Assembly (NCBI GenBank): GCA_016191335.1
Contig: JACPOW010000001.1
Coordinates: 1,035-65,034, forward strand
Length of the DNA stretch: 64,000 nt
Direction of reading: 5' to 3'
Source: Elusimicrobiota bacterium
Lineage (GTDB): Bacteria > Elusimicrobiota > Elusimicrobia > UBA1565 > UBA9628
Shown here: positions 4,630 to 43,875 of the stretch, piece by piece
Layout: each line of letters begins with the position of its first letter
Numbering within the stretch: position 1 is the stretch's first letter
Position numbers and translations under genes: made by a program
The notes under the pieces: generated by a model
Told to the model about the DNA's origin: nothing
What the model saw: the letters and a program-made list of their open reading frames with translations, nothing else
The model's database searches: none

Positions 4630-6264
4630 TCACCTAATGATCGGATTGATACGGCGCCAGACTTCATCGTGGTCCGGGGAAGTTCGACGTTGATCGTCGC
4701 GAGGCGGATTGTCATTCCCGCGACGAGGAGTGTCGTGTTGCGGAGTCCGGGGGTTCCACCGCCGATCATACTCCACGGCCTCTTTCTTCCGTTGTTTCGC
4801 GTAAAGCGTCATGAATTTATCGAAGCGCGCCGAATCCGTGATTTCCGAGGTATGATCGAACAGGTCGTCGATGCATCGGTCTCTGTTCCCCCGCGCTCCG
4901 AACATGTAATCGAGCCTGGCGGGGAAATCCGGCTGAGCGACGACTTTCCCGAGCAAGACGGCCGAGCCATTGCAACCAGGAGAGGGTTGCGTCCGCCGAT
5001 TCTCCAGTACTTCGTGGATCTGCCGGCATGTGCGGGAAACGAGCAGCGCGACCTCCACATCGTTTAAGTTCAAAGTCGTTTTTAACGCGGGCTTAAAGAA
5101 AAAGTAGTTGTTCTCGTCACGAAAGCCCATAAAAATCCCGCTATGCTCTTGATAGGCAAGCCGGTAACCACACTGTGACGCCATCAGGTCGAGCTGACGC
5201 CAAACGGCCTCTTCTGCTTCAACGGCGCGACGCTCCGTTTCCTGGCGTTCGCGGGCCAACCTCTCTTCCTCGATCCGTTTCTGCAGGGCTTCCTGCCGGG
5301 CGCGTTCGGCCGCCACTTTCTCCGCCAACCGCATGAACTCCTCTTCGATATTGACCTGGATCGTCTCGTAATGATCCTTCCATTTGGCTTGCTGGGCGGG
5401 GTCTAGCCCGTTGTCCGTCAGAGGTACGCCGGTGCGCACTGCTTCGGAGAAATCCTTATGATTCTTCCGGATGTCATCTTCGTCCTTCTTTTCGAGGCCA
5501 AAGGCCTTGATAAAGTCGAGGTCGCGCTTGTAAGCATCTCGCTCCTCTTTGTCGATGTTCTGCCAGCCGCGCCGTTTCCCTTTGCTGTCCGTCCAGTCGA
5601 GCCGGTCGAAATGGCGAGATTCGTGAAATAGGATGCGCGCGAGATAGCCTGGATTCTTCTTCTCAAGAGCGAGACCGAGCGTGTCCTTAAGAATCAGCAC
5701 TCTGCCATCGAGCAGAGTGATCGCCTGACGCTCGCCGGGCGTGCGAGGATCCAATTTTGTCGCCCCGCTGTAGTGCGGTTGCCCATCGCTCCCGACTATC
5801 TTCACCGACAGCATCACGCCAGGGCCGGATTCGGTGACACGCGGATTCCATCGGGTCATCAGTCCGGCGACATAGGCGTCCGCCGCGTCCGAAGGCACCT
5901 GGATTTCGAACGGGCCATCGTGTCGAATCCTGACATGGTAGAGGTCCGCCGTCATCGTCATGGCACTCTGATAGGTCTGTTCTTGGGTCGTGTAGGCGGC
6001 AAGATACGCCTGAACGGCTGCGAGCTTGACTTCATCGGAGGCCGCAGTAGCGCGGATGGCGATGTATGCCGCCTTCAACTGTTGCACGATAGGCTCGAGG
6101 TCCTGTGCCTCCTTAAGGGTCGTTAAAATCTTGGCTTTGGAATCCCTCGTTGAGGGCCCGGGATCAGGAGTACACGGCACGCCTGGGGCCGCTGCAGAGC
6201 ACAACGCGGCGAGGGCGGGCGATGGCACTGCTGCCAGACTCAGCGCAAGAAGGAGGCGCCTCAT
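4630..6264 (-). CDS. secreted protein with an HExxH motif (HESRH) and a central coiled-coil; putative metallopeptidase-like
   Basis: 544-aa ORF in an AT-richer stretch. Signal peptide MRRLLLALSLAAVPSPALA. HESRH is encoded at 5611-5625. Charged heptad-like region EEEFMRLAEKVAAERARQEALQKRIEEERLARERQETERR. ATGA coupling to the upstream gene. Confidence 0.6.
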   Translation of the reverse strand: MRRLLLALSLAAVPSPALAALCSAAAPGVPCTPDPGPSTRDSKAKILTTLKEAQDLEPIVQQLKAAYIAIRATAASDEVKLAAVQAYLAAYTTQEQTYQSAMTMTADLYHVRIRHDGPFEIQVPSDAADAYVAGLMTRWNPRVTESGPGVMLSVKIVGSDGQPHYSGATKLDPRTPGERQAITLLDGRVLILKDTLGLALEKKNPGYLARILFHESRHFDRLDWTDSKGKRRGWQNIDKEERDAYKRDLDFIKAFGLEKKDEDDIRKNHKDFSEAVRTGVPLTDNGLDPAQQAKWKDHYETIQVNIEEEFMRLAEKVAAERARQEALQKRIEEERLARERQETERRAVEAEEAVWRQLDLMASQCGYRLAYQEHSGIFMGFRDENNYFFFKPALKTTLNLNDVEVALLVSRTCRQIHEVLENRRTQPSPGCNGSAVLLGKVVAQPDFPARLDYMFGARGNRDRCIDDLFDHTSEITDSARFDKFMTLYAKQRKKEAVEYDRRWNPRTPQHDTPRRGNDNPPRDDQRRTSPDHDEVWRRINPIIR

Positions 6265-7118
6265 CTGACGATCTCGAGGAGGATGGTTTCGGTGGAGATG
6301 GGTCCGAGAGCGTCGGCGACGCGCTGAGCATGCTGCTTGCGTGTCGTTTCGGGCGACTGAAAGCTCGACGTGAGCTTGATGAAGCTTTCGGTGATAGGCC
6401 CAGGCCTATCGTCTAGTTCGACGTGGATACGGTAGCGACCCGGGGTCTTGAACTCATTGCGGACGACCATCGTCCGGAACGGTTCCGAGGGGGAATCTCC
6501 GTCTCCGAGGCTGCGAAGGGTTTCGCCGGGGCCGATCCTGACCCTGAAAGTCGTACTCGCAGTGCTCTCGGCTTGTTGTTGGGCGGTGAAAGGGGCATCC
6601 ATCCGCTTCATCGGAGAATGCCTGCCGCCGAGCGCGGGCTCAAGGCGATGGGTCTTTCCAGATGAATCCGTCAGCAGGAACTTGATCGTCCTCATCGAAT
6701 GGAGCAGGCCGCCCCATCGGAAGACGCTCGAGTCGTATTCGATGTAATTGATCGGCGCCCGGCCGACGTTCGTCATCTCGAGGCGATAACGAACGGCCTC
6801 TCCGACGCGGATCTTAGTCTTCTCGAGAACGAGCTTGAGCCGGACCTTACGCTCGAGGGGTTCGGGAATGAACCCGGCGGGCGCGGGCGACACCATCATG
6901 CGCGTATTCCTATCCTCGAGCCGCTTATCCGCGTCGACGAGTGCGTCCAACTTCTTGATCTCATCGGGAACGGGGCGTTTCTCGTCGGAATGCTTCGGCA
7001 TCGCCAGCGGAGCAGGGGGGGCGGAGGATTCGGGGGGCGGGGCCGAAGACCGCTTACACGCGGCGGAAACGATCAGCAGCGCGACGAAAGCGACATTCCT
7101 CATTTCAGGTAGCCCCAT
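6261..7118 (-). CDS. putative lipoprotein, function unknown
   Basis: 285-aa ORF. Lipobox-like LIVSAAC after MRNVAFVAL (alternative start 7103). Stop overlaps the start of the 544-aa gene. AT-richer composition. Confidence 0.6.
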   Translation of the reverse strand: MGLPEMRNVAFVALLIVSAACKRSSAPPPESSAPPAPLAMPKHSDEKRPVPDEIKKLDALVDADKRLEDRNTRMMVSPAPAGFIPEPLERKVRLKLVLEKTKIRVGEAVRYRLEMTNVGRAPINYIEYDSSVFRWGGLLHSMRTIKFLLTDSSGKTHRLEPALGGRHSPMKRMDAPFTAQQQAESTASTTFRVRIGPGETLRSLGDGDSPSEPFRTMVVRNEFKTPGRYRIHVELDDRPGPITESFIKLTSSFQSPETTRKQHAQRVADALGPISTETILLEIVR

Positions 7119-7120
7119 CC

Positions 7121-7148
7121 AAAAAATAGAAGCGGCGTTAGCCGCTTC
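7121..7148 (-). terminator. Rho-independent terminator downstream of msrAB
   Basis: The minus strand reads GAAGCGGC-TAAC-GCCGCTTC (perfect 8-bp stem) followed by TATTTTTTGG. Confidence 0.7.
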
Positions 7149-7323
7149 CCTGGACTCATCCGGTTGAGGCCGGATCGTGGATACCCCGAGGCCGATTCCC
7201 CGAGCTACAGAGTTACTGTAGTTATGATAGTCCGGCCTGAGCGTGCCATCGAGGGTCTTACGGCCCAGATGACACTGGGTCTGACAGTTTTTGGGCGTCA
7301 GCCCAACTTAGATCAACTTCGCC

Positions 7324-20370: not shown

Positions 20371-23300
20371 TTGATCAGGGCCACCTTGCCCGTCCTTCCG
20401 ATGGCGGGCCGGCCCTGCTTGCGGGCGTTCACCGAGTAGAGATAGACCGCGGAGGCGGCCCCGCGCACGTCCCAGTGATAATCGTAGGTGTACTGCGCCC
20501 CTTTCCCGTTCCCGTCGTCGAGCAGGACCGGTCCGGCGAGGCTGCCTCCGTTCACGCGCCGGCCCGACAGGTCGAAGATGTCGACGTCCACCTCGTCGGC
20601 CACCCCGGCCTGGAGACGGATCGTCACGCGCTCTCCGCGCCGCGAGGGATTGGGGAAGGCGTACAGGTCGCGGAAGAGGAAGGCCTCCTCCGCGGCGGCG
20701 GGCGCCGCCCCGGACCCCGTCCCCGCGCCGACGGCGGCCAACGGCCCCGCCCCGCCGGCCGGAGCGACGATCTCGCGCACGCTCATCTTCTTGTAGAGAA
20801 GGCCGTTCGTGCCGACGCCGTCGCTGCGGAAGTAGACGGTGGCGTTGGGCAGCCCCGATTCGCTTCCGGGGCGGCCGGAGCCGTTGGTCAACCGCTCCTG
20901 TGGGTTCACTCCGGCCGCGCAGGGGGTCCCGTCGCCCCACGCGCTCCCGTTGTCCTCGAACCGGTTGACGAGGAACCAGGAGCCGCCGCCGGCTCCGTCC
21001 GTCATGTCCATGTAGTGCTCCACCATGACGTTGCCGTCCGGCAGGTCGTAGACGACGTACTTGTGGCCGATCCAGACGTTGAATGGCATCGAGGCGGAGA
21101 CGGGCCAAAAGGTCGTGGTGGTGTTGTTGACCGCGTAGGAGGTCGGATGGCGGGTCTCCTTATAGAAGTCCACGTGCCCGTCGTATCTGATCCGCGCGCC
21201 GACCCCTCTCGTGTCGCAGAGCTGCGCCGTTTCGCTGCCGGTGGTCCCGTGGTTGGTGCGGGCCGCGCCGTCGATCCCCGCGTAAGCCACGTTGGAGTCG
21301 GCGACCCTCATCGCATAGACCGTCATCTCCACGTCGTGCCACTGCTTCGCGTGCGAGTTCGCCACCGTCATGGAGCTGCTGCCCTTGACGAACTCCGGGT
21401 GATGGATGTACATCCGGGGCGCGCTGCCGGAGATCTTGAACACCCCGCTGGCCGCGTCGATGAGATAATTCGCGGTCCCGTGGGCGGCGTCGAACCAGGG
21501 ATCGATCGGGTCCCTGGCGAAGCCGAACGAGCGGTTGATCCCGTTATCCCAGGACGAGTACCACGTCTTGCTTCCCCCCGCGGTGGCGTACAGCTCCCGG
21601 ATGCCGTCCCACCACGGGACCGTCGAGGCGGCGACGGTCAGATTGCACATCGTCGCGGCGCCGGGCGAGGCGAGGAAGCCGAGGTTGTCGAGGACGGTCG
21701 CCGTGCTGTGGTTGGAGCGGAACGTGTAGTTCCGGGCGAGCAGGACCCGGGGAGCTCCCGGCGAGGTCACGTACACGTCGAAGATGTGCGCGGAGGCGTT
21801 GACCCGGAGGTCGAAGCGGTAGGAGGTCCCCGTGCTGTAGGCGACGGTCGACATGCGCGCGTAGGCGGTGCTGTAGCGCACGTCGATGAAGCCCTGGGAG
21901 TTGAAGCGCACGCCCGCGGCGAGGGCGGAGAGGCTCCCGGCGGCCCCGCCGGACAGGCCGACGGAGGACTCCATCCCGGCGGAGCTGGGCGTGACGTCGA
22001 AGGAGACCGTGAACGAGCTGACCTGCGGCGGGATGGCCTCGTTGCGCCAGGCGCCGGCGCTGGTCAGGCAGCCGGCGCCCGACGGCGACGTCGTGAAGGT
22101 CCCGTCGCCCGAGAACGCGAGGTTGCCCGCCGCGTCGGCGGATCCGACCCGGTAATGGTAGAGCGTCCCGGCGGAGAGGCCGCCGACGGACCGGGTGTGA
22201 ACCGTGCTGGTGGAGGCGTCCGGCGCCGTCGAGCTGCCGTAGGCGGCGCTCGTCCCGTAATCGACCCGGGAGGTCGACGGCTCGTCGGTGACCCAGGCGA
22301 GGGCGGCCGAGCTGATCCCCAGGTCCGCGACGACGACCGAGCTGATGACCGGGGCCGTATGGTCCACCGTGACGGCGACGGCCGCCGAGGTCGAGGCGTT
22401 CCCGTCCGCGTCCCAGGCCAAGGCGGTCAAGCTGTGCCCGCCTTCGCTCGACACGGCCGTGTCCCAGACCGCCGCGTAGGGCGCGGCGGCGTCCGGCGGG
22501 CCCAGATTCGCGCCGTCGAGCCGGAACTGGACCGTCGCCACCGCGACGTCGTCGAAGGCGGCGGCCGTCACGGCGACGGTCCCGGCCAGGACCGCTCCGT
22601 CCTGGGGCGACAGGACCGAGACCGTCGGCGTCGCGACGTTGACGGCGACGTTCGTGAAGCGGGCGGACGCGTCCTCGGTGTAGAGGCTGATGCGCCCCGA
22701 GGTGTAAGGCCGCTGCGCGTCGGTGAACGTCGTGATGAGGACGCCGTCGACGAAAGCCGACAGGACGTTCTGCCTCTGGGCGATCTTGACGTGGTACGCC
22801 CCGCCGATCGGGAAGACGGGAGACGAGCCCGTCGTCAGGAAGCGCTGGCCGCCGGGGTAGGCGGGATCCGCCTTGCCCAGCTCCCATCCGTCGGGCTTGG
22901 GGATGAAGTAGTAGAAGTGGGCGTTGTCCGCGTAGTCCCAGACCACCCAGGCCGCCTCCCACGGATTGGGCGGGGAGCCCGTCCTCAGCTGGGCGGTCGT
23001 GCGCAGATCGGCGGACAGGGTCATCGGGGAGGCGAACGACAGACCGGACACCAGGGCCGCGTGGGTCTCCGACGAAGAGGCGCTCGCGAAGGGGCTCTCC
23101 TCGAGCCAGGAGCGGCCGCCGTCGGTCCTCACGGAGGTGCAGCCGTAGCCGTTGAACACGGAGGTCCAGGGACCGAAGACCGCGCCGTCGACGAGGCAGA
23201 CATCCGGCGTGTAGGACGAGAAATCGTCGAAGAACGATACGGCCGGAGAGGAGGGCGCGGTCGTGAACGTCGCATCGGCGGAGACCGCGAGGTTGCCCAA

Positions 23301-24923
23301 GGCGTCGGCGGATCCGACGCGGTAGTGGTAGAGGGTCCCGGTGGAGAGCCCGCTCAGGAACGCGTCGTGGACGGCGACGGTGGACGGGTCGGGCGCCGTG
23401 AGACCGCCGTAGGCCGTGCTCGTGCCGTACTCGACCCGGGAGGTCGCGGGCTCGCCGGTGACCCAGGCGATGGCCGCGTAGTCGATGCCCACGGCCGTGA
23501 CGGCCGCCGAACCGATGAGCGGCGGCGTGTTGTCCACCGTGACGGAAACGGCCGCGGCGGTCGAGGCGTTGCCCGCCGTGTCCCACGCCACCGCGCCCAG
23601 GCTGTGGAGCCCGTCGCTCGACAGCGCGGTGTTCCAGTCGAGCCCGTAGGGCGCGACGGCGTCGGGGGGCCCCAGGTCCTCGCCGTCGAGCCGGAACTGA
23701 ACCGTCGCCACGGCGACGCCGTCGAACGCCGCCGCGGCCACCGCGACGGATCCCGCGATCGTCGCCCCTCCGGCGGGCGATGAGATCGCCACCGTCGGCG
23801 GCGTGAGGTCAGGAGCGACGAGGGTCGAGAAGGAGGAGTCGCCCGAGACGGCGAGGTTTCCCGCGGCGTCGGCCGAGCGGACCCGGTAATGATACGGCGT
23901 CCCGGCGGCGAGCCCGGTCAAGAGCCGGACGTGGCTGGTGACGGTCGACGCGTCGAGCGCCGTGAGGCTCCCGTAGGCGGTGCTCGTGCCGTACTCGACC
24001 TGAGAGCTCGAGGGCTCGTTCGTGAACCACGACACCGCGGCCGAGCTCGAGCCTATGCCCCCGACGGCGGCCGAGCTGATGACGGGTGAAGTGTTGTCCA
24101 CCGTGACGGAGACGGCCGCGGAGGTCGAGGCGTTGCCCGCCGCGTCCCACGCCACGGCGCTCAGGCTGTGCGCGCCGTCGCTCGACAGGACGGTGTTCCA
24201 GCTCGCCGCGTAGGGCGCCAGGAGGTCCGGCGGGCCGAGGGCGGCGCCGTCGAGCTTGAACTGGACCGTCGTCACGGCCACGTTGTCCGAGGCCGCCGCC
24301 TGGACCGTGCGCAGGCCCCGCACCACCGCGCCGCCCGTGGGGGACGAGATGGTCACCGTGGGCGGAACGCCATCGGGGCCGGACGCCGTGAATACGACGT
24401 CGACCCAGTAGTTGCTGGACCGCGTGCCGCGGTTCGGGAAGGCCGCGGCGCTCGAGTAGACGTATAAGCCGTTGACCCCGTCGAGCCCGTCCCGCAGGGC
24501 GTGCAGCGGCGGATTGTCGATCCCCGCGGCGGAGAAGGTGAGCCGAGTGACCGCGTAGACCGCCGCGGTATGATAGGAAGCGACGTAGGTCGTCCCGGCC
24601 TGGATCGCGATGGGAGACGCGAAGCTCGCCGACTGCCAGCCCGTCGCGGTCTCCCCCGTGAAGGTCACGGAGCCGAGGAGAGCGCCCGTGTTCGTCCAGA
24701 GATGACCCGTGTGCGCGCCGGTGTTCCCCGCGGTCTTATAGAAGCGCAGGCCCGTGATCTGGCCCGCCGAGTCCGCGCGGAAGCGCACGCCGAGCTCGAC
24801 GGAACGGGAGTTGGGGCTGGAATCGCCCGCGGCGGGCAGCTGGGTCGTGAAAATGGACGCCGCGCGAGCCGTACCGGTCAGGAACAGCGCGGACAGAAGG
24901 AGCGGCAGGAAACGGATGGACAC
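20367..24923 (-). CDS. 1518-aa secreted multidomain protein: DUF4082-like, three Ig-like/FN3-like modules, ConA/LamG-like domains, T9SS-type C-terminal sorting domain
   Basis: GTG start and signal peptide MSIRFLPLLLSALFLTGTARA. The C-terminal ~95 aa (YAFPNPSRRGERVTIRL...VDVDIFDLSGRRV...HWDVRG...AVYLYSVNA...GKVALIK) fit the T9SS type-A/FlgD-Ig-like CTD pattern. Confidence 0.85.
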   Translation of the reverse strand: MSIRFLPLLLSALFLTGTARAASIFTTQLPAAGDSSPNSRSVELGVRFRADSAGQITGLRFYKTAGNTGAHTGHLWTNTGALLGSVTFTGETATGWQSASFASPIAIQAGTTYVASYHTAAVYAVTRLTFSAAGIDNPPLHALRDGLDGVNGLYVYSSAAAFPNRGTRSSNYWVDVVFTASGPDGVPPTVTISSPTGGAVVRGLRTVQAAASDNVAVTTVQFKLDGAALGPPDLLAPYAASWNTVLSSDGAHSLSAVAWDAAGNASTSAAVSVTVDNTSPVISSAAVGGIGSSSAAVSWFTNEPSSSQVEYGTSTAYGSLTALDASTVTSHVRLLTGLAAGTPYHYRVRSADAAGNLAVSGDSSFSTLVAPDLTPPTVAISSPAGGATIAGSVAVAAAAFDGVAVATVQFRLDGEDLGPPDAVAPYGLDWNTALSSDGLHSLGAVAWDTAGNASTAAAVSVTVDNTPPLIGSAAVTAVGIDYAAIAWVTGEPATSRVEYGTSTAYGGLTAPDPSTVAVHDAFLSGLSTGTLYHYRVGSADALGNLAVSADATFTTAPSSPAVSFFDDFSSYTPDVCLVDGAVFGPWTSVFNGYGCTSVRTDGGRSWLEESPFASASSSETHAALVSGLSFASPMTLSADLRTTAQLRTGSPPNPWEAAWVVWDYADNAHFYYFIPKPDGWELGKADPAYPGGQRFLTTGSSPVFPIGGAYHVKIAQRQNVLSAFVDGVLITTFTDAQRPYTSGRISLYTEDASARFTNVAVNVATPTVSVLSPQDGAVLAGTVAVTAAAFDDVAVATVQFRLDGANLGPPDAAAPYAAVWDTAVSSEGGHSLTALAWDADGNASTSAAVAVTVDHTAPVISSVVVADLGISSAALAWVTDEPSTSRVDYGTSAAYGSSTAPDASTSTVHTRSVGGLSAGTLYHYRVGSADAAGNLAFSGDGTFTTSPSGAGCLTSAGAWRNEAIPPQVSSFTVSFDVTPSSAGMESSVGLSGGAAGSLSALAAGVRFNSQGFIDVRYSTAYARMSTVAYSTGTSYRFDLRVNASAHIFDVYVTSPGAPRVLLARNYTFRSNHSTATVLDNLGFLASPGAATMCNLTVAASTVPWWDGIRELYATAGGSKTWYSSWDNGINRSFGFARDPIDPWFDAAHGTANYLIDAASGVFKISGSAPRMYIHHPEFVKGSSSMTVANSHAKQWHDVEMTVYAMRVADSNVAYAGIDGAARTNHGTTGSETAQLCDTRGVGARIRYDGHVDFYKETRHPTSYAVNNTTTTFWPVSASMPFNVWIGHKYVVYDLPDGNVMVEHYMDMTDGAGGGSWFLVNRFEDNGSAWGDGTPCAAGVNPQERLTNGSGRPGSESGLPNATVYFRSDGVGTNGLLYKKMSVREIVAPAGGAGPLAAVGAGTGSGAAPAAAEEAFLFRDLYAFPNPSRRGERVTIRLQAGVADEVDVDIFDLSGRRVNGGSLAGPVLLDDGNGKGAQYTYDYHWDVRGAASAVYLYSVNARKQGRPAIGRTGKVALIK
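22068..24377 (-). repeat. three ~190-codon paralogous coding modules inside the cargo gene
   Basis: Copies at about 23814-24377, 23244-23813 and 22068-22628. Each encodes ...SSP.GGA...VQF.LDG..LGPPD..APY...W.T..SS.G.HSL.A.AWD..GNAST.AAV.VTVD.T.P, then ...V.YGTS.AYG..TA.D.ST...H......GL..GT.YHYRV.SADA.GNLA.S.D..F.T. Confidence 0.8.
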
Positions 24924-25011: not shown

Positions 25012-25458
25012 CTACTTGGCGGCCCAGTCGACGGGGATCACGAACACGTTCTTGACGACGGTGGAGCCGCCGCCGTTGGGGACGGTCACCTTGTCGATGC
25101 CGACGCCCTTGTAGAACACCTTGTGGTGCCCCCAGATCCCGAGGTTCACGCCCTCGCCGCCGCGGCGCAGGACCAAGGTCGTCGCGCCGTTGTCGCCGCC
25201 CGCGTTCGTCACGGCGACGACGGAGAACGCCCCGTCCGCGCTGGCGTAGGTCCGGTTCTCCTGCCCCTCGCGGTCCACGGAGCAGCCCGCGTACTTCAGG
25301 TCGGCGGTGCGCGCCGCGTCGGGAACGGTGTAGTCGCTGAGCCACAGGCCGAAAGTGATCTTCTCCCAGGCCGAGGTCATCTCGTTGCGCTGGCAGGCGG
25401 CGGTTTGGGCCGAGGCGGGGACGGACAGGACGGCGGCGAGCAGGGCGGCGATGATCAT
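25012..25458 (-). CDS. secreted hypothetical protein
   Basis: 148 aa. Signal peptide MIIAALLAAVLSVPASA. TATAAT and a GGAGGT Shine-Dalgarno upstream on the minus strand. Confidence 0.65.
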   Translation of the reverse strand: MIIAALLAAVLSVPASAQTAACQRNEMTSAWEKITFGLWLSDYTVPDAARTADLKYAGCSVDREGQENRTYASADGAFSVVAVTNAGGDNGATTLVLRRGGEGVNLGIWGHHKVFYKGVGIDKVTVPNGGGSTVVKNVFVIPVDWAAK

Positions 25459-25551: not shown

Positions 25552-25977
25552 CTATTTGTCCTTGATGGAGGACTTCTTGTCGAGCCAGACGCCGAGGATG
25601 GCGTGGGTCCGCTTGGCGATGCCGAGCTCGTTCTCGTAGTCCTCGAGGAACTTCACGAAGGCCTTGTTCTCCTCGGGGGTGTGCGAGCCCTTGGTGTAGG
25701 CGCGGTAGTAGGACTGGCCGTTCTCGAAGTACTCGACGCGCACGGCCAGGTCGCGGGCGACCTCGCCGGCGGTGTCGAGCGTGCCCTTCGGCCGCGCGGG
25801 GACGGCCGGCGGGAGGAGAGGCGCGGGCTTCGTCTCGACGGCTATGACGGAAACGTTCGCCGCCGGTGCGGCGGACGTCGACGCGATGACCGCGGCGCCC
25901 GGCATGCCGGGCAGCGGCGGGAGCTCGGCGGCGCGGACGGACGGGACGGCCAGCAGGAGGAAAAGGGTCGTGATCAT
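25552..25977 (-). CDS. secreted hypothetical protein
   Basis: 141 aa. Signal peptide MITTLFLLLAVPSVRA, a Pro/Ala linker, then a small C-terminal domain. Confidence 0.6.
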   Translation of the reverse strand: MITTLFLLLAVPSVRAAELPPLPGMPGAAVIASTSAAPAANVSVIAVETKPAPLLPPAVPARPKGTLDTAGEVARDLAVRVEYFENGQSYYRAYTKGSHTPEENKAFVKFLEDYENELGIAKRTHAILGVWLDKKSSIKDK

Positions 25978-26072: not shown

Positions 26073-26100
26073 TTGACGCCGGGGGTTTCGGGGCTATACT
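26073..26100 (+). promoter_or_regulatory. near-consensus sigma70-type promoter TTGACG-N16-TATACT with no downstream CDS
   Basis: Sequence cTTGACGccgggggtttcggggcTATACTcatcgca. The next recognisable plus-strand gene is 2.8 kb away. Confidence 0.6.
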
Positions 26101-26106
26101 CATCGC

Positions 26107-26346
26107 ATACCCGCTCCGAAACCGGTGTGCAGTCGGTGCCGCGAAGTGGACGCCGAGTTGAGGCCGAGGCCGTAACCGGCGATGAAGTGAGTGGCAGTCG
26201 GAGCGCAGTCGCAAGCCGTAGTATCGGGCGCGTCGTCGCGGGAGTTCCCGTCGAGACGCGAGGGTGCGCCCGGCGTTACGGGTTCGGGGCGGGTTCTGTG
26301 AGGCGCCGAGGCGGTCCCCTAGTGGACGCCGGTCTCGGCGCCTCCT
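26107..26346 (+). ncRNA. candidate structured small RNA (~240 nt); 6S-like rod is one possibility, identity unknown
   Basis: Bounded by the promoter and a strong hairpin. 26109-26120 (ACCCGCUCCGAA) pairs 12/12 (one G-U) with 26283-26294, then an A.G mismatch and 3 more bp. This encloses ~187 nt. The overlapping 91-aa ORF starts inside the -35 box. Confidence 0.5.
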
Positions 26347-26354
26347 AATTTATA
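26300..26354 (+). terminator. long GC hairpin followed by a short T-rich tail; probably a bidirectional stop for the sRNA and the convergent S41 gene
   Basis: GAGGCGCCGAG (26300-26310) pairs perfectly with CTCGGCGCCTC (26334-26344). Followed by CTAATTTATA. Confidence 0.55.
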
Positions 26355-26366
26355 CCCCGCCGGCCG

Positions 26367-28745
26367 CTACGGCTTCGCGGGCGCCGCGGGCGCCGGAGCC
26401 GAAGGCTCCAGCATCCCGGCCAGGGCCTTCAGGATCTTCCAGCGGTACTCGGCGAACCCCGTGCGCAGGTCCTTGGCGGTGATCTCGTAAGGGATGTCGG
26501 GGGTCACGCCCAGGTTCTCGATGGGCTGGCCGTTGGGCCGCTCGGCGAGGCTGCCGGTCGCGGAGAGATGGTCGATGCCGAACTGGTCGACGGAGTAGGC
26601 GTTGACGATGCCGCCCGCGCCCGCGGTGCGCACGCCGAGGATGGTGGCGCGCTTGTTGTCCTGCATGATCGCGGGGAAGAAGTCTCCGCCGGAGAAGTCC
26701 AGCGCGTTGGTCAGCAGGAGGATGGGCTTGGTGTAGCGCTCCTCCGCCTTCGGCGCGGGGTCGATGTCGGCCACGCCCTTGACGTGGATCAGGTCCGTGA
26801 AGCGGCTGCCCGCGTTGAACGCCTTGAGGATGAACTGGGCGGACTGGACCATCAGGGCCATGAACTTGCCGTCGACGGGGTAGCCCCCGGCGTTCGGCGG
26901 CTCCTCCTCCTCGCCCGCCTTCGTCTTCTTCTTCTTCTCCTTGAGCTTGGAGGCTCCGCCCTGCTGCTGGCGCATGAGCTGGAGCAGGAAGTCCGCCGAC
27001 TCGTGCGCGTCGGACTCGCCGATGATGAGGCGGTGGCGCGGCGTGACCAGCGGCTTGTCGGTCAGGTGCGAGGCGAGGGCGTAGAGGTAGAACACGCTGC
27101 CGCCGGGGTTGCTCACCTGGTCGATGACCAGCGCCTCGGTCTCGGCCTGGAACTTGGCGATGATCTTGGCGAACTCCTGGACCTCGGCGTAGTCGCCGTC
27201 GTAGGCGGCGATGCGGATGTAGCCCTTCTTCTTGCCGTCCTTCGTCTCGAAGATGTAGGCGTCGAAGTGGCTGTCCTCGTCGCTGCGCCACAGGATCTTC
27301 CCGAGGCGGGGCACGAAGCTCTTGCGGGCGCCGATCATGAACGGGTTGTCGGCGGCCTCGGAGCGCATGCTCGAGAAGAGGTCGATGAGGGGGTGCACCG
27401 CGGCGACGATGGCCTTGCCCACGGAGCTGAAGAAGCCGGCGCGGACCGGGCCGGAACGCCCGGCGGCGGCGCCGCCGATCAGGCCTTCGGGCTCGAGCAT
27501 GCCGGCGTTGCGCAGCGGCACGTCCTGGGCGAGGAGCTCGGGGGTGTAGTCCCACGGCAGGACGACCTTGTAGAACTCGCCCTTGCTGCGGATGACGATC
27601 TCCGCGCCGCCCCGGGGGATGTCGTTGTCGCCGCGCGCGCGCCGGCGGTTGGTCAGGAACATCTCGGCCATGCGCTGGTCGGTCTGGGCCGTGTTGCCCG
27701 TCATGCGGCCGGCGATCTCCGCGACGGCCTCGGCGGTCGGCTTGCCCTCGAACGCGACGAGCTCGTCGCCCATCTTGAACGGGAAGACCTCGAGCGGGAG
27801 CTTCTCCCGGTCGATGTAGGTCAGGTAGTAGCGGCCCTCGGCGCCGGCGACGGAGAAGGGGAGCTTGGAGCTCTCGGTGGAGTGGAAGGAGATGCTGACG
27901 TGGTAGTCGCGCATCGACGCGACCAGCTTCGCCAGGAGGTCCTGGAACTCGCGGGTCGTGATGGCGGGGTTCGCCAGGATGGCGGCCTTGGCCGTGTCGT
28001 ACTCGCGCTTCAGGTCGAGCTGGAAGCGGTCCTTCTTCATGTCGAGGGGCGCGTACTGCTCGGCGAAGATCGAGGCGACCTGGTACAGCGAGGCGAGCAT
28101 CCGCTGCTGCGTCTGCGCGGCGTCGGAGGCCTTGGCCGGCGCGAAGGAGGGGCGCAGGCCGTTGGAGCGGAAGGTGCGTCCGCCGCGGGCGCTCAGGTCC
28201 GACGAGGCGAAGGCGTGGACGTCGGCGTCGGAGGCCTTGGAGCCGTCGAAGATGCGGCCGATGTTGACGACCTCGACCGCGGAGACGCGGGAGGCGGACT
28301 CGCCGGCGATGGCCGAGAGGGAGGCGAGCGGCGTCGCGGTCTCCGTCGCCTCGGCCTTGGCGGACGCGTTCGCCGGCGTGACGGCGGGCGTCGCGGCGGG
28401 CGTCACGGCGGCGGCGCGGGCGGCGGACGGGACGGACGCGGGCTTCGCGGCGGCCGGCGCGGAGAGGGAGGCGGCGAGGGCGGAGGGCGCGGCGGCCGGG
28501 GCCGACAGGACGGGGGCGGCGGAGAGGAGGCCCAGCGAGTTGACGGACAGCGAGGGGATCGCGGAGACGCCGGCGTTGACGCCCGTCACGGAGGCCGCGG
28601 CGGAGGCGCCGGCGGCGGAGACGCCGGGGGTGACCCGCGCGTTGTAGGTCTGGGACCAGGCCGCGCTGCCCGGAAGGCTGAGCCCGATCGCCAAGATCAG
28701 GGTCACGGCCAGGGATTTCTTCGCGGCGGGTCGTTCAACGATCAC
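26367..28745 (-). CDS. CPAF-like S41-family serine protease with a ~200-aa Ala/Ser/Pro-rich N-terminal region
   Basis: 792 aa. Blocks recalled from Chlamydia CPAF are matched: RDYHVSISFHSTESSKLPFSV, EFAKIIAKFQAETEALVIDQVSNPGGSVFYLYALASHLTDKPL, LDFSGGDFFPAIMQDNKRATILGVRTAGAGG and IENLGVTPDI. This places the His/Ser/Glu catalytic residues. Confidence 0.75.
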   Translation of the reverse strand: MIVERPAAKKSLAVTLILAIGLSLPGSAAWSQTYNARVTPGVSAAGASAAASVTGVNAGVSAIPSLSVNSLGLLSAAPVLSAPAAAPSALAASLSAPAAAKPASVPSAARAAAVTPAATPAVTPANASAKAEATETATPLASLSAIAGESASRVSAVEVVNIGRIFDGSKASDADVHAFASSDLSARGGRTFRSNGLRPSFAPAKASDAAQTQQRMLASLYQVASIFAEQYAPLDMKKDRFQLDLKREYDTAKAAILANPAITTREFQDLLAKLVASMRDYHVSISFHSTESSKLPFSVAGAEGRYYLTYIDREKLPLEVFPFKMGDELVAFEGKPTAEAVAEIAGRMTGNTAQTDQRMAEMFLTNRRRARGDNDIPRGGAEIVIRSKGEFYKVVLPWDYTPELLAQDVPLRNAGMLEPEGLIGGAAAGRSGPVRAGFFSSVGKAIVAAVHPLIDLFSSMRSEAADNPFMIGARKSFVPRLGKILWRSDEDSHFDAYIFETKDGKKKGYIRIAAYDGDYAEVQEFAKIIAKFQAETEALVIDQVSNPGGSVFYLYALASHLTDKPLVTPRHRLIIGESDAHESADFLLQLMRQQQGGASKLKEKKKKTKAGEEEEPPNAGGYPVDGKFMALMVQSAQFILKAFNAGSRFTDLIHVKGVADIDPAPKAEERYTKPILLLTNALDFSGGDFFPAIMQDNKRATILGVRTAGAGGIVNAYSVDQFGIDHLSATGSLAERPNGQPIENLGVTPDIPYEITAKDLRTGFAEYRWKILKALAGMLEPSAPAPAAPAKP

Positions 28746-28949
28746 TTGAGCCTCCTGCGGCCACTGCTGTTTCGATAACGGGATTATGCGCCAATAGCGC
28801 TTTCAAGGGGTGAGCAAGAGGGCCAATAGACCCACGGCAATGGGCCCACGCGAGTTTGGGCCCTCTGGTCTTACAAAAGCACCTATCGGCCCCCCGTCGG
28901 CGGACGGGAAAACCCTTTGGCTCCTCTGTTGCATGGATATGTAGGCGTT

Positions 28950-34384: not shown

Positions 34385-36964
34385 TCACCTCGCGCGCAGC
34401 AGGACGTCTTCAGGTCCCGACAGGGACGGCGTCTGGTCGCGGTTCTGGCGGCGCGCCTCGTCCTGGACCTTGGGCTTGAGGTAGGAGTGCAGGGAGGCCG
34501 TCGTGACCGGCCCGCCCGCCGACAGCCCCTTGAGCAGGTGGTAGGTGAACAGGCCGTGGCCCTGCTCCTTGAGCACGCTCGTGATCTGGTCGGGCTGGGT
34601 CGCCGCGAGCACCGAGAGGCGGCCCGTCGCGGGCTTCTGCAGCCTCGACACGAGCGGCCGCGCGCCCTCGGAGAGCACGGAGCGCCCTCCCGCTCCCGAG
34701 AAGCAGGCGTCGAGCAGGACGACGACCTGCTTCGCCTTGAGGCCGTCGAGCGTCTTATAGAGCCGGTCCACGGGATACGCCGTGTCCGCGAGGAACGAGG
34801 CGTCGCCGTCCCACGGCATCAGGAACGCCCGGCCCGTCGACGGGTCGGGCGCGCCGTGCCCCGAGAAATAGAAGAAGACCCGGCTGCGCTCGTTCGCGTT
34901 CTTGGGCAGCCAGCTCTCGAGGTACTTGGCGAGCGCGGAGCGCCCGGCCTTGGCGCCCGAGAGCAGGATGAGGTTGCGCTCGGGCACGCCGAGAGCCTTG
35001 AGGTGACGGCGCACCGCGGCCGCGTCGCGTTCGGCGAAGAGCGCCTTCGGAAGCTCGGAGTACTCCTCGACGCCGACGACGATCGCGAAGGCGTCGGGAT
35101 CCTCGGGCAAGGCGTAGCCGGGCTTGTCCGCGTCGGAGACGAGCGCCGGCGCCGCGGCCGGCGGCGCGACGGCGACGGCGGCCTTCTTCTCGCGCGCGGC
35201 GGCCGCCGCCACGGCCTGATCGACGAGGCGATGCACGTCGGGCGTTGGAGCGGCGGGCTTGCCGCGCGCGGACGCGGAGCGCAGGATGTTCAATGTCTCG
35301 GCGCCCTTCGCGTGGTCGTAGGGCGTCTTCTGGCTGTTGTCCTGCCACAAGGGATCGGCGCCCTTGGCGAGCAGCCAGCTCACCATCTTCGCGTTCCCCT
35401 GCTCGGCGGCGCGCGTCAGCGCGGTGAACCCGATCTGGTCGGGCCGGTCGATTCTGGCGCCTCCCGCCAGCAGCGCCTGCGCGGACTCGAGGGAGCAGTC
35501 GGGCCGCACGGCGCAGCCCGCGAGCGGCGCCTCATCGCGCGCGCCGTCTCCCTGGTTCGGGTCGGCCCCCGCGGCGAGCAGCCGCTTGACGACGTCCGGC
35601 CACTCGAGCGCCATCGTGAGCGGAGGCTCCTTGCGTCCGGAGCGCAAGGACAGGTCCGGCTTGTGCTTGAGCAGAGCGGCGAGCAGCGGCTCCGAAGGCT
35701 TCGGGCGCGGCCACGGCGGGCCCTCGAGCAGGCGCGTGAGCGCCGTGTAGCCTTTCGCGTCGGGGGCGTCGAGCTTCGCGCCGGCGGCGAGCAGCGCCTC
35801 GAGGGACTCGGGGCCGCAGTCCTTCTCCCCCTCGGAATGCCGGCTCGTCAGATAGGTGAGCGGAGTCAGCCCGCGCTCGGCGTCCGCCTGCTCGGGATCG
35901 GCGCCGTGCTTGAGGGCCCAGTCCAACAGTTCGGGGTCGCACGCGACGCGGTGAAGCGGGGGACGTCCCCCGGACATCAGGCCGCGATGCCCCGGATGCG
36001 ACAGGAGCAGCTTGACAGCCTCGCGATTGCCCGCGGCCAGGGCGGTCTCAAGAGGCACCTCCCCTTCCCTGACGCAGGAAACAGGGTCCCCGCCAGGGTA
36101 GGCCAGCAGCCAGCGCAGCGCGGGCGTCAGCGCCGGCGAAGCGGCGGCGCGAGCCAGCGAGACTCTGCGCAGGCACCATGGGGATTCGAAGGCGACGCCG
36201 CGCGACACGATCAGGTCGGCGAGAGCCGGATCGGGCCGCTCGACCTCGAACAGCGCGCGATCAACCGCACCGTCTACAATGTAATCAGGCCCGATCTTCA
36301 GAGTGGGGCTCGACTCGAGGACCAAGCGCAGAGTCTGAGTGTCGCCACGGACGCCCGCCCGCGGCCAATCCGAATCGAACGGATAACCGGAGGCGAGCAG
36401 GCCCCGCGCCGCCTCGGGGCAGACACTCGAGGGGGCCGGTTGAAGCTTGGCGCCGCGCTTGATGAGCAGCTCGAAATGCTTCATGCAGCATTCGCCGGCG
36501 GCACGGTATAGCGGACCGTCGTAGACGTCTTTCGGGTGGGCGTTGGGCGAAGCACCTCCGTCGAGCAGGACCTCGAGCAAAGCGGGGTTCTCGCGGCCTT
36601 GAGGGCAGCCGCTGTGATAGGTCAACTGGGAGGTCATGTTCCCCTTGTTGCTCACGTCGGCGCGAACGCCGGCCGCGAGAAGCCGTTTGACGGTCTCGGT
36701 GCCGCGCTGCATGGCGAACTTGAGCAGGGACAGCTGATCCTCGTCGGCGGAAGGGACCTTCACGCCGGCGGCGAGCAGCAGATGGACGGACCCGGTCGAC
36801 CCGGATCTCAACGCCTCCTGAAGATGCGCGGTCTTGGGCTTGCGCTCCTTGAGAAGCTCGGCGACCTTCGCCGGGTCTCCCAGCGCGTCCATGAGGGGGT
36901 CTTTCGCGGCGGCGATCGAAGGCAGGACGGCGGCGAGCAGCAGGGCGGGGAGCAAAGTCCTCAT
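34385..36964 (-). CDS. secreted ankyrin-repeat protein with a C-terminal caspase-family (C14) domain
   Basis: 859 aa from ATG 36964 (signal MRTLLPALLLAAVLPSIAAA). At least 8 ankyrin-like repeats (G[AG][AD][PL][ND] turns, e.g. LLAAGADPNQGD, LAKGADPLWQD). The C-terminus has the His-Cys dyad context FFYFSGHGAP and VVLLDACFSGAGG. Confidence 0.8.
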   Translation of the reverse strand: MRTLLPALLLAAVLPSIAAAKDPLMDALGDPAKVAELLKERKPKTAHLQEALRSGSTGSVHLLLAAGVKVPSADEDQLSLLKFAMQRGTETVKRLLAAGVRADVSNKGNMTSQLTYHSGCPQGRENPALLEVLLDGGASPNAHPKDVYDGPLYRAAGECCMKHFELLIKRGAKLQPAPSSVCPEAARGLLASGYPFDSDWPRAGVRGDTQTLRLVLESSPTLKIGPDYIVDGAVDRALFEVERPDPALADLIVSRGVAFESPWCLRRVSLARAAASPALTPALRWLLAYPGGDPVSCVREGEVPLETALAAGNREAVKLLLSHPGHRGLMSGGRPPLHRVACDPELLDWALKHGADPEQADAERGLTPLTYLTSRHSEGEKDCGPESLEALLAAGAKLDAPDAKGYTALTRLLEGPPWPRPKPSEPLLAALLKHKPDLSLRSGRKEPPLTMALEWPDVVKRLLAAGADPNQGDGARDEAPLAGCAVRPDCSLESAQALLAGGARIDRPDQIGFTALTRAAEQGNAKMVSWLLAKGADPLWQDNSQKTPYDHAKGAETLNILRSASARGKPAAPTPDVHRLVDQAVAAAAAREKKAAVAVAPPAAAPALVSDADKPGYALPEDPDAFAIVVGVEEYSELPKALFAERDAAAVRRHLKALGVPERNLILLSGAKAGRSALAKYLESWLPKNANERSRVFFYFSGHGAPDPSTGRAFLMPWDGDASFLADTAYPVDRLYKTLDGLKAKQVVVLLDACFSGAGGRSVLSEGARPLVSRLQKPATGRLSVLAATQPDQITSVLKEQGHGLFTYHLLKGLSAGGPVTTASLHSYLKPKVQDEARRQNRDQTPSLSGPEDVLLRAR

Positions 36965-37034
36965 CCGGCCGATTGTACCCGTTCGACGGATTTTGGACAA
37001 GCCCGGCTGGCAGGTTTGTTGCATTTCAGACGAC

Positions 37035-37187
37035 ATGAAAAAGTGCCCTGATTGTCGCAATCCCGTCACTTCGCTGATGTTCCTCGACGGCAAGCTCGTC
37101 CCCGAGCACTACTGCGAGCGCTGCTGTAAGAGCGTCGCCCCCGTGGTGAAGCCCGTCGCGGCGCCCCGGGAAGCGGTCCCCGCCTAA
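37035..37187 (+). CDS. 50-aa zinc-ribbon-like protein (CxxC-x19-CxxC)
   Basis: Product MKKCPDCRNPVTSLMFLDGKLVPEHYCERCCKSVAPVVKPVAAPREAVPA. It ends 16 nt before the CoA-transferase A gene. No clear Shine-Dalgarno. Confidence 0.45.
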   Translation: MKKCPDCRNPVTSLMFLDGKLVPEHYCERCCKSVAPVVKPVAAPREAVPA

Positions 37188-43098: not shown

Positions 43099-43188
43099 CG
43101 GGCGTTTCTCATCCACGCCCCGAATGACTCGCGCGCCGAAAGTGTAGTAGGATTGCGGGGCGCAAAACCCGGTCCGCACGGAGCTCCC

Positions 43189-43875
43189 ATGAACACTTTC
43201 TGGTCTGAGATCGAAGCCGTCATCGAGAAGAAGTCCCTCCTGAAGCACCCCTTCTACCAGGCCTGGACCGCCGGCACGCTCACGCGCGAGGACCTCGCGC
43301 ACTACGCCCAGCAATACTACAAGCAGGAAGCCCGCTTCCCGCGCTTCGTCAGCGCCGTGCACTCCAACACCCCCGACCTGGCGACGCGCCAGATGCTCCT
43401 CGAGAACCTGACCCACGAGGAAGCCGGCGCGGACAACCACCCCGAGCTGTGGCTGCGCTTCGCGGAGACCGTCGGCGCCGACCGCGCCTCCGTCCTCGGC
43501 GCCGAGGCCCACGCCGGCACGACGAAGTGCGTGGAGACCTTCGACCGCCTGTCCCGCGGCTCCTGGCAGGCCGGCCTGGCCGCGCTCTACGCCTACGAGG
43601 CGCAGCAGCCCGCCGTCGCCAAGACCAAGATCGAGGGCCTGAAGTCGAAGTACGGCCTCGACTCCAAGAACGCCCTCGGCTTCTTCTCGGTCCACGAGAC
43701 CATGGACGCCTGGCACTCGGCGTCGGAGAAGCAGGTCCTCGTCGCCGAGCTGGAGAAGAACCCCGCCCTCGGCGCCGAGATGAAGGCCGCGGTGTCCGAC
43801 GCCTGCGACGCGCTCAACGCCCTGCTCGACGGCGTGTGCGAGGCGCGCGGCATCATGGCGTGCGCGACGGCCTGA
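43189..43875 (+). CDS. CADD-like (PqqC/TenA/heme-oxygenase-fold) di-metal oxygenase
   Basis: 228 aa from ATG 43189 with a GGAG Shine-Dalgarno. HPFYQAWTAGTLTREDLAHYAQQYYKQEARFPRFVSAVHS and LAALYAYEAQQP parallel the Chlamydia CADD (CT610) sequence as I recall it. Confidence 0.7.
   Translation: MNTFWSEIEAVIEKKSLLKHPFYQAWTAGTLTREDLAHYAQQYYKQEARFPRFVSAVHSNTPDLATRQMLLENLTHEEAGADNHPELWLRFAETVGADRASVLGAEAHAGTTKCVETFDRLSRGSWQAGLAALYAYEAQQPAVAKTKIEGLKSKYGLDSKNALGFFSVHETMDAWHSASEKQVLVAELEKNPALGAEMKAAVSDACDALNALLDGVCEARGIMACATA

What the first reader, a model, noticed from the sequence alone, without database searches (positions are those of the whole stretch)
26367..28745. CPAF-like protease in a very G+C-rich genome, with a long low-complexity N-terminal extension
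Seen:
- Several long blocks match the Chlamydia protease-like activity factor as I remember it. These include the stretch ...TEALVIDQVSNPGGSVFYLYAL.S.LTD.PL... and the Ser (DFSGGDFF), His (DYHVSISF) and Glu (IENLGV) catalytic contexts.
- The first ~200 residues are Ala/Ser/Pro/Thr-rich repeats that, as far as I recall, are absent from CPAF.

Established: CPAF is regarded as a hallmark secreted virulence protease of Chlamydiae.

Inference: a homolog here, near a CADD-like gene and an ankyrin protein, hints at a eukaryote-interacting lifestyle or an ancient wider distribution of the family.
Basis: partly seen in the sequence, partly recalled or inferred. Interest (0 to 1): 0.6.

Follow-up and report, generated by a model that had tools for sequence, protein, structure and literature searches.

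The report
CPAF-family secreted protease in groundwater Elusimicrobiota
The gene is a real, intact relative of the Chlamydia protease CPAF, carried by a groundwater Elusimicrobiota bacterium; this shows that CPAF belongs to a large protease family also found in Elusimicrobiota and Bdellovibrionota, so the gene alone does not point to a host-associated lifestyle.

Summary
The ORF at 26367..28745 (-) is real: 792 aa, GC3 0.98, AGGAGG ribosome-binding site. It is specifically CPAF-like.
- It scores 563 bits on the NCBIfam CPAF equivalog model (cut-off 250).
- Its PDB match to CT858 is E 5e-67, against 2e-6 for the next S41 protein.
- An AlphaFold model matches CPAF crystal structures (TM 0.82, E 7e-42).
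- His282, Ser685 and Glu743 align with the CPAF triad His105/Ser499/Glu558 and are invariant in 66 homologues.

Residues 1-31 look like a Sec signal peptide. Residues 32-207 are a disordered Ala/Ser/Val/Pro-rich extension, found only in one Elusimicrobiota subclade (100% bootstrap).

The contig is Elusimicrobiota and its best-matching sequencing run is a groundwater metagenome. Homologues occur in many Elusimicrobiota and Bdellovibrionota MAGs as well as Chlamydiota, with 655 50%-identity clusters at E<=1e-30. NCBI already names the Elusimicrobiota proteins "CPAF".

The "wider distribution" reading is supported. The "eukaryote-interacting" reading is not:
- The CADD-like gene is a 4-aminobenzoate synthase homologue about 14 kb away.
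- The ankyrin-caspase gene is missing at that position in two close relatives.

The most likely function is an exported, autoprocessing zymogen protease; its substrates are unknown.

In passing: an abundant, highly conserved, unclassified ~170-245-nt RNA lies just 3' of the gene.

The parts
26367..28745 (-). Complete CDS of the CPAF-family S41 serine protease (792 aa, stop codon included)
   Evidence: ORF listing; GC3 0.98; NF033424 at 563 bits; Pfam PDZ_4 plus Peptidase_S41
28751..28756 (-). Ribosome-binding site AGGAGG, 5 nt upstream of the GTG start
   Evidence: Read directly from the sequence
28653..28745 (-). Residues 1-31: predicted Sec signal peptide. It has a KK n-region, a hydrophobic helix at 11-21, and an A-W-S|Q site that is conserved as AxA/AxS|QT in relatives.
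   Evidence: Sequence inspection and the N-terminal alignment; helix 11-21 in the model. No dedicated signal-peptide predictor was available.
28125..28652 (-). Residues 32-207: Ala/Ser/Val/Pro-rich, predicted disordered extension, absent from chlamydial CPAF
   Evidence: pLDDT below 50; composition; only 69-75% DNA identity to relatives against 83-87% for the core; the extension is specific to one Elusimicrobiota clade
27522..28124 (-). Residues 208-408: N-terminal helical region plus PDZ-like domain; carries catalytic His282 (codon 27900-27902)
   Evidence: Pfam PDZ_4 at residues 291-404; His282 invariant in 66 sequences; aligns with CT858 His105 (PMC8787135)
27345..27521 (-). Residues 409-467: flexible internal segment at the position of CPAF's excised inhibitory segment
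   Evidence: pLDDT below 50 for residues 409-455; aligns with CT858 chain positions about 213-253; present but variable in length (33-94 aa) in every clade
26400..27344 (-). Residues 468-782: S41 catalytic domain with the NPGG motif, nucleophile Ser685 (codon 26691-26693) and Glu743 (codon 26517-26519). It includes a clade-specific Lys/Glu-rich insert at about residues 598-616.
   Evidence: Pfam Peptidase_S41 at residues 508-752; Ser and Glu invariant; codons checked; insert length by clade

Best explanation
The gene encodes an exported serine endoprotease of the CPAF branch of peptidase family S41, in a groundwater Elusimicrobiota bacterium. Shown here: an intact ORF with a ribosome-binding site; a full-length match to CPAF in sequence and in predicted fold; a PDZ-like plus S41 architecture; and an invariant His282/Ser685/Glu743 triad. 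Inferred: (1) residues 1-31 direct Sec export and are cut at AWS|Q; (2) residues 32-207 form a disordered spacer or pro-region added in one Elusimicrobiota lineage; (3) as in CPAF, the protein is made as a zymogen, and its internal segment (about residues 409-467) blocks the active site until dimerisation-driven autocleavage removes it; (4) the mature enzyme then cleaves proteins or peptides outside the cytoplasm, in the periplasm, on the surface or in the medium. The substrates are unknown. In a free-living groundwater bacterium they are more likely environmental, envelope or competitor proteins than eukaryotic host factors. The family is shared by Elusimicrobiota, Bdellovibrionota and Chlamydiota, so chlamydial CPAF is one specialised member of it.
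For: Family membership: NF033424 at 563 bits against a cut-off of 250; CT858 E 5e-67 against 2e-6 for the next S41 protein; the Foldseek top five are all CPAF, E 7e-42, TM 0.82, with the next hit at 8e-16. The triad is invariant in 66 homologues from three phyla and in 42 close homologues. The CPAF triad is His105/Ser499/Glu558 (PMC8787135). Export: the signal-peptide features and a conserved AxA|QT site. CPAF itself is Sec/T2S-dependent and a zymogen (PMC6717882). The internal segment is present in all clades and has low confidence in the model. Native gene: GC3 0.98 and conserved synteny porBADG | CPAF | small2 | small1 in L001, L002, L003, L005 and L188. Taxon and habitat: mutS, mutL and the POR genes are 84-95% identical to those on Elusimicrobiota MAG contigs; a groundwater metagenome holds 97% of the sampled words. 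Weak sign of transcription: low-depth metatranscriptome contigs lie along the gene.
Against: There is no biochemical evidence for activity, autoprocessing, dimerisation or secretion. The signal peptide was judged by eye only. The residue aligned with CPAF's C-terminal processing site is followed by an invariant Pro (N467-P468), so the cleavage positions may differ. The secretion route beyond the inner membrane is unknown, and no T2SS genes lie in the window. The metatranscriptome contigs have a depth of only about 2-8 and could be DNA carry-over. Model confidence is moderate (mean pLDDT 61.7, pulled down by the disordered parts).
Confidence: 0.85

Rival explanations
1. It is a eukaryote-targeting effector, like CPAF in Chlamydia, and marks this Elusimicrobiota bacterium as a symbiont or parasite of protists.
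For: The homology to a known host-directed protease is genuine. An ankyrin-repeat protein is in the window. The other two phyla that carry the family live on other cells: Chlamydiota inside eukaryotes and Bdellovibrionota as predators.
Against: The ankyrin-caspase gene is not at that position in close relatives. The CADD-like gene is a PABA-synthase homologue. The organism is found mainly in groundwater and other environmental metagenomes. The window shows ordinary biosynthesis and repair genes, and no secretion-system or effector cluster. The family is very broad, with 655 clusters.
Confidence: 0.1
2. It is a housekeeping periplasmic quality-control or C-terminal processing protease (functionally like Ctp/Prc) that only resembles CPAF in sequence.
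For: It belongs to the S41 family, has a PDZ-like domain and appears to be exported. It is conserved and syntenic within the lineage. Some MAGs have two paralogues.
Against: It scores far below the Ctp/Prc models: TIGR00225 gives 50.6 bits against a cut-off of 218.6, and the CtpA/B/C models give 32-40 bits against cut-offs of 625-665. It keeps the CPAF-type His/Ser/Glu triad, not the Ser/Lys dyad that I recall for Ctp/Prc. Its fold is much closer to CPAF (TM 0.82) than to CtpA, CtpB or Prc (TM 0.27-0.49).
Confidence: 0.15
3. It is a recent horizontal transfer from Chlamydiae, or a binning or assembly contaminant.
For: The family is best known from Chlamydiae.
Against: Identity to CT858 is only about 29-30%. 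GC3 is 0.98, the same as neighbouring genes. The gene order is the same on contigs of up to 155 kb from several Elusimicrobiota MAGs. The window protein falls in an Elusimicrobiota-only clade with 100% bootstrap support.
Confidence: 0.02

Closest known systems
Chlamydia trachomatis CPAF (CT858; PDB 3DOR, 3DJA, 3DPM, 3DPN)
   Same: Full-length collinear homology from about residue 208 to 782. It has the same PDZ-like plus S41 architecture and the same His/Ser/Glu triad positions. An internal segment sits at the position of the inhibitory peptide. It has an N-terminal signal peptide. The predicted fold matches at TM 0.82.
   Different: Identity is only about 29-30%. There is a 175-aa disordered extension after the signal peptide, a Lys/Glu-rich insert at about residues 598-616, and a longer internal segment (median 64 aa in this clade against 55 in Chlamydiota). 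The organism is a high-GC groundwater Elusimicrobiota bacterium, and no host context is known.
CPAF-family proteins of other Elusimicrobiota MAGs (many already named 'protease-like activity factor CPAF' by NCBI)
   Same: The nearest relatives are 64-92% identical over the full length, extension included, and share the same synteny.
   Different: A second Elusimicrobiota clade (87% bootstrap) has only about 63-88 residues before the core. Some MAGs carry members of both clades or two paralogues.
CPAF-family proteins of Bdellovibrionota MAGs (Bacteriovoracaceae, Halobacteriovoraceae, Bdellovibrio)
   Same: They pass the same equivalog model at 529-674 bits and have the same triad.
   Different: They have about 22-49 residues before the core and no long disordered extension. 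They are 32-42% identical to the window protein.
C-terminal processing proteases CtpA/CtpB/Prc/D1P (S41A)
   Same: They share the S41 catalytic domain and have a PDZ domain.
   Different: Similarity is weak and limited to about 90 residues around the nucleophile (E 1e-4 to 1e-6). The scores are far below the family cut-offs, and the fold match is poorer (TM 0.27-0.49).
BACUNI_00178 putative protease (PDB 4GHN)
   Same: It is the best non-CPAF structural neighbour (E 8e-16, TMt 0.75).
   Different: Identity is 11%, the protein is much shorter (388 aa), and it was not detected by sequence search.

Membership tests
CPAF family (NCBIfam NF033424; S41 peptidase) | Whole-protein score above the curated cut-off of the CPAF model, covering the whole profile | tested here: met
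   563.2 bits against a cut-off of 250; profile positions 17-563 of 564
CPAF family (NCBIfam NF033424; S41 peptidase) | Domain architecture: CPAF-type PDZ-like domain (PF17816) followed by Peptidase_S41 (PF03572) | tested here: met
   PDZ_4 at residues 291-404 (E 1.9e-22) and S41 at residues 508-752 (E 3.9e-23)
CPAF family (NCBIfam NF033424; S41 peptidase) | Catalytic triad equivalent to His105/Ser499/Glu558 of CT858 | tested here: met
   His282, Ser685 and Glu743 align with those residues (numbering checked against PMC8787135). They are invariant in 66 sequences.
CPAF family (NCBIfam NF033424; S41 peptidase) | Three-dimensional fold of CPAF | tested here: met
   The AlphaFold2 model matches 3DOR/3DJA at E 7e-42 to 4e-40, TMt 0.82-0.83. 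The next hit, not a CPAF structure, scores 8e-16. This compares a predicted structure, not a solved one.
CPAF family (NCBIfam NF033424; S41 peptidase) | N-terminal Sec signal peptide | tested here: inconclusive
   A typical n/h/c-region and a conserved AxA|QT-type site were seen by inspection, and a helix at residues 11-21 appears in the model. No signal-peptide predictor was available.
CPAF family (NCBIfam NF033424; S41 peptidase) | Zymogen with an internal inhibitory segment removed by dimerisation-driven autocleavage | not testable with these tools
   A segment of the right position and length exists (residues 409-467), but cleavage and dimerisation need biochemistry.
CPAF family (NCBIfam NF033424; S41 peptidase) | Type II secretion-dependent release, and action on host proteins (the 'equivalog' function) | not testable with these tools
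   No T2SS genes are in the window and no host is known. The same model is passed by Bdellovibrionota and other non-chlamydial proteins, so identical function cannot be assumed.
Ctp/Prc C-terminal processing peptidases (TIGR00225, NF045588-91, NF008388) | Score above the family cut-off | tested here: not met
   TIGR00225 gives 50.6 bits against 218.6; CtpA/B/C/Z give 31-40 bits against 525-665; Prc gives 21.9 bits against 825

The most novel reading that the evidence does not exclude
CPAF did not arise in Chlamydiae. It would be one offshoot of an old family of secreted, self-activating proteases that bacteria use against other cells. In that case the Elusimicrobiota enzymes, with their long disordered tether, would be surface-displayed or secreted weapons or feeding enzymes aimed at neighbouring microbes or protists. 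That would imply an unrecognised predatory or epibiotic habit in these groundwater Elusimicrobiota.
Probability: 0.12. Interest if true: 0.7.

Novelty: new member of a known kind. Interest (0 to 1): 0.42.

Why it matters
CPAF is usually treated as a chlamydial hallmark, and its features are often read as adaptations to animal hosts. One paper argues that its PDZ-like domain mimics human PDZ proteins (PMC4734761). Finding the same full-length architecture, triad and internal segment in groundwater Elusimicrobiota and in Bdellovibrionota suggests these features predate, or are independent of, animal-host interaction. It also offers non-pathogen relatives for studying the activation mechanism. 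NCBI's pipeline already labels such proteins "CPAF", but the literature I could search does not mention this distribution. The point is therefore under-appreciated rather than new. The 'equivalog' name probably over-states what is known about function outside Chlamydiae.

Tried and rejected
- An exact look-up of the window protein in the assembly index found nothing. P0002, the 92%-identical relative, was used instead.
- Neighbour-joining bootstraps do not resolve how the Elusimicrobiota long clade, the short clade, Chlamydiota and Bdellovibrionota relate. Elusimicrobiota monophyly gets 28%, Chlamydiota 2% and Bdellovibrionota 19-28%. I therefore make no claim about the direction or age of any transfer. 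No outgroup and no maximum-likelihood program were available.
- Literature searches for CPAF together with Bdellovibrio, Bdellovibrionota or 'CPAF-like' mostly returned the unrelated Tad-pilus ATPase CpaF.
- A sample of 10 family representatives gave names for only three: two Elusimicrobiota and one Chlamydiales.
- I looked for a functional link between CPAF and the two small secreted genes downstream. They are syntenic only within the close clade, where all genes are syntenic, and are absent next to more distant CPAF genes. No link is claimed.
- For the neighbouring RNA, Rfam gave no plus-strand hit at gathering threshold or at E<=10, and ARAGORN found no tmRNA.
- An 18-mer genome scan for that RNA returned mostly chance hits; better-chosen patterns worked.
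- Covariation for that RNA is uninformative because the sequences are too similar: 0 of 75 and then 2 of 73 predicted pairs show compensatory changes.
- One translation request failed because of a frame error and was replaced.
Full report
**1. The observation**

The minus-strand ORF 26367..28745 encodes 792 aa starting at a GTG codon.
- Its third-position GC is 0.98, against 0.49 at second positions. That is the coding signature of this 69%-GC window. The long ORFs overlapping it in other frames lack this signature and are the by-products expected in high-GC DNA.
- An AGGAGG site lies 5 nt upstream of the start.

**2. Is it CPAF-like, specifically?** Yes.
- Pfam finds the CPAF-type PDZ-like domain (PF17816, residues 291-404) and Peptidase_S41 (residues 508-752).
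- The NCBIfam equivalog model for CPAF (NF033424) scores 563 bits, against a curated cut-off of 250, over essentially its whole length. All Ctp/Prc models score far below their cut-offs.
- Against PDB sequences, CT858 (CPAF) scores E 5e-67 over residues 225-778. The next S41 protein, an IRBP, scores 2e-6.
- An AlphaFold2 model was built from 42 homologues. Its five best Foldseek hits are all CPAF crystal structures (E 7e-42 to 5e-37, TM 0.81-0.83, 29-30% identity). The next hit, not a CPAF structure, is at 8e-16.

**3. Catalytic machinery**

CPAF uses a water-mediated His105/Ser499/Glu558 triad (PMC8787135).
- I worked out the offset between PDB chain numbering and CT858 residue numbering from the alignment.
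- With that offset, the triad residues align with His282, Ser685 and Glu743 of the window protein (codons checked).
- All three are invariant in 66 homologues from Elusimicrobiota, Bdellovibrionota, Chlamydiota and others. So are the D-Q-x-x-N-P-G-G and T-x-G motifs.
- A pseudo-enzyme is therefore unlikely.

**4. Anatomy**
- Residues 1-31 have the features of a Sec signal peptide: Lys-Lys, a 14-residue hydrophobic helix, and A-W-S|Q. The site is conserved as AxA|QT or AxS|QT across the clade. I had no dedicated predictor, so this rests on inspection.
- Residues 32-207 are Ala/Ser/Val/Pro-rich and predicted disordered. They evolve faster than the core: 69-75% DNA identity against 83-87%. They contain only degenerate repeats.
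- The folded core runs from 208 to 782.
- Residues 409-455 have low confidence in the model. The wider stretch, about residues 409-467, lies where CPAF has the internal inhibitory segment that is excised on activation (PMC6717882; PMC4734761).
- A segment of 33-94 aa, poorly conserved but flanked by conserved W-D/E-Y-x-P-E and N-P-x-x-I/L-G motifs, is present in every clade. A zymogen loop is therefore probably ancestral. That is an inference, and cleavage cannot be tested here.

**5. Whose gene is it?**
- The closest proteins (64-92% identity, full length) come from Elusimicrobiota MAGs and metagenomes. NCBI already names several of them "protease-like activity factor CPAF".
- The gene order porB-porA/D-porG | CPAF | two small secreted genes | DUF3014 ... 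mutL mutS is shared with Elusimicrobiota contigs of up to 155 kb. Housekeeping proteins there are 84-95% identical.
- A groundwater metagenome holds 97% of the locus's sampled words. Most other runs that hold it are groundwater, and the rest are other environmental metagenomes.
- The gene is therefore native to a groundwater Elusimicrobiota bacterium. It is not a contaminant or a recent import.

**6. Distribution of the family**
- A scan of one genome per species returned 68 loci: many Elusimicrobiota, Bdellovibrionota (Bacteriovoracaceae, Halobacteriovoraceae, Bdellovibrio), Chlamydiota, and a few MAGs labelled Zetaproteobacteria, Myxococcales or unclassified.
- Nine representatives from these groups all pass the CPAF model at 485-674 bits.
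- An exhaustive HMMER search of 1.84 billion cluster representatives found 655 clusters at E<=1e-30.
- In a neighbour-joining tree the window protein falls in an Elusimicrobiota-only clade with 100% bootstrap support. A second Elusimicrobiota clade has 87% support. The deeper branching is unresolved.
- The number of residues before the core tracks these clades: about 20-30 in most Chlamydiota and Bdellovibrionota members, about 63-88 in the short Elusimicrobiota clade, and about 126-286 in the long clade.
- Some MAGs carry two copies, and one Waddliaceae contig has two copies about 30 nt apart.

**7.
- The CADD-like gene at 43099..43875 is real. Its best PDB matches are 4-aminobenzoate synthases (E 1e-50) and CT610 itself (E 2.5e-38). 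It is a metabolic enzyme about 14 kb away, so it is not evidence for eukaryote interaction.
- The ankyrin protein at 34385..37108 is an ankyrin plus Peptidase_C14 (caspase-fold) fusion.
- In L003 only about 190 nt separate the two flanking genes, so no gene is there. In the 92%-identical relative L188 a PASTA-domain gene occupies that position. The ankyrin-caspase gene is therefore a variable insertion.
- The rest of the window is ordinary: trp genes, fumC, mutS/mutL, PFOR, CoA-transferase, queC/queE and glycosyltransferases.

**8. Mechanism I commit to**

It is a Sec-exported zymogen protease of the CPAF type. It is activated by removal of its internal segment and acts outside the cytoplasm on substrates that are still unknown.
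- The disordered extension is most simply a spacer or pro-region specific to this lineage.
- Confidence is high for family membership, catalytic competence and export. It is moderate for the zymogen mechanism and low for any biological role.
- Low-depth metatranscriptome contigs lie along the gene. That is weak evidence that it is transcribed.

**9. Novelty**

This is a new member of a known family. The database annotation already exists, but I found no paper mentioning CPAF in Elusimicrobiota or Bdellovibrionota in the searchable literature. [quoted passage not shown]

**10. A neighbour worth a separate look**

The 389-nt spacer between the CPAF stop codon and the next gene is the most conserved DNA in the region.
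- Its core, 26100-26350, is 100% identical to L001 and 89-95% identical to L002, L003, L005 and L087. Housekeeping genes are 83-91% identical, and another spacer is 75-78% identical.
- On the plus strand it has a TTGACG-16-TATACT promoter at 26073-26100. The hexamers are invariant while the spacer between them varies. It also has a GC-rich hairpin followed by a T-tract at about 26305-26356.
- Seventeen distinct copies were recovered. Every one whose source is named or whose neighbouring genes were examined comes from an Elusimicrobiota relative; the metagenome contigs carry no taxon label.
- Metatranscriptome contigs cover only this element. Depth reaches 577 in a 42-Mb groundwater run. One contig starts at 26107, the predicted transcription start, and several start exactly at 26122.
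- In two runs from one sample the contig is 199 nt, which equals 168 + 31. It joins 26289 back to 26122. This could be a circular RNA, a reverse-transcription concatemer of a very abundant 168-nt RNA, or a tandem duplication.
- It matches no Rfam family and is not a tmRNA.
- The predicted fold is stable (z = -4.4), but covariation is uninformative.
- I regard it as an expressed, unclassified small RNA that runs convergent to the CPAF gene. I found no evidence that it regulates CPAF.

Noticed in passing
window 26073-26356 (+), between the CPAF stop codon and the gene at 25552..25977: A highly conserved, unclassified small RNA gene. It has an invariant TTGACG-16-TATACT promoter and a terminator hairpin with a T-tract. 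Its core is 89-100% identical across relatives whose genes are 83-91% identical. Seventeen distinct copies were recovered; every copy with a named source is from an Elusimicrobiota MAG. Metatranscriptome contigs cover only this element, at depths up to 577. There is no Rfam or tmRNA match, and covariation is uninformative.
   Followed up: partly
window 26122-26289 (+): In two metatranscriptome runs from one groundwater sample the contig is circularly permuted. It is 199 nt (168 + k of 31) and joins 26289 to 26122, at depth about 105, with no flanking sequence. Other runs show a sharp 5' end at 26122, one of them directly next to a sequencing adapter. This could be a circular RNA, an RT template-switch concatemer or a tandem duplication; it is unresolved.
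   Followed up: partly
window 7145-7215 (-): A 2'-dG-II purine riboswitch aptamer (Rfam RF03165, 74.8 bits against a gathering score of 60). It lies upstream of an ORF of unknown function with a lipoprotein-like N-terminus (within 6261..7307), in a stretch of lower GC3 (0.66-0.72) than the rest of the window.
   Followed up: no
window 34385-37108 (-): A 907-aa ankyrin-repeat plus Peptidase_C14 (caspase-fold) fusion. L003 has no gene at this position, and L188, the 92%-identical relative, has a PASTA-domain gene there. It is therefore a variable insertion.
   Followed up: partly
window 43099-43875 (+): The CADD-like gene. Its best PDB matches are 4-aminobenzoate synthases (9pj4, E 1e-50; 8va9) and CT610 (1rcw, E 2.5e-38). 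It lies immediately downstream of a YwiC-like membrane protein gene.
   Followed up: partly
window 25012-25458 (-) and 25552-25977 (-): Two small genes (148 and 141 aa) with signal-peptide-like N-termini and no Pfam match. They are conserved downstream of CPAF and the RNA in close relatives. They are not found next to more distant CPAF genes.
   Followed up: partly
window 20367-24923 (-): A 1518-aa surface-type protein with DUF4082, three Big_7 domains, fn3/purple-acid-phosphatase-N domains and a C-terminal sorting-like domain. A 2271-aa version is present in L188. No match to it was found in L001, L002, L003 or L005, where DUF3014 follows the small genes closely.
   Followed up: no
L052 9938-11713 and 11741-13489; MAGs CAZIBN, JAQTNG and JABEUV: The CPAF family has paralogues. 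One Waddliaceae contig has two copies about 30 nt apart, and three Elusimicrobiota MAGs have two copies on different contigs.
   Followed up: no
window 58832-61435 (+): An unusual fusion of a CAAX (Rce1-like) membrane protease domain with a trypsin-like (HtrA-type) protease domain and a PDZ domain, in one 867-aa ORF.
   Followed up: no
L006 end (8570-8734) and L095 start (1-183): In MAG STA_59 the assembly breaks inside the conserved RNA element: one contig ends in it and another begins in it. This may reflect strain mixtures collapsing on the invariant sequence.
   Followed up: no
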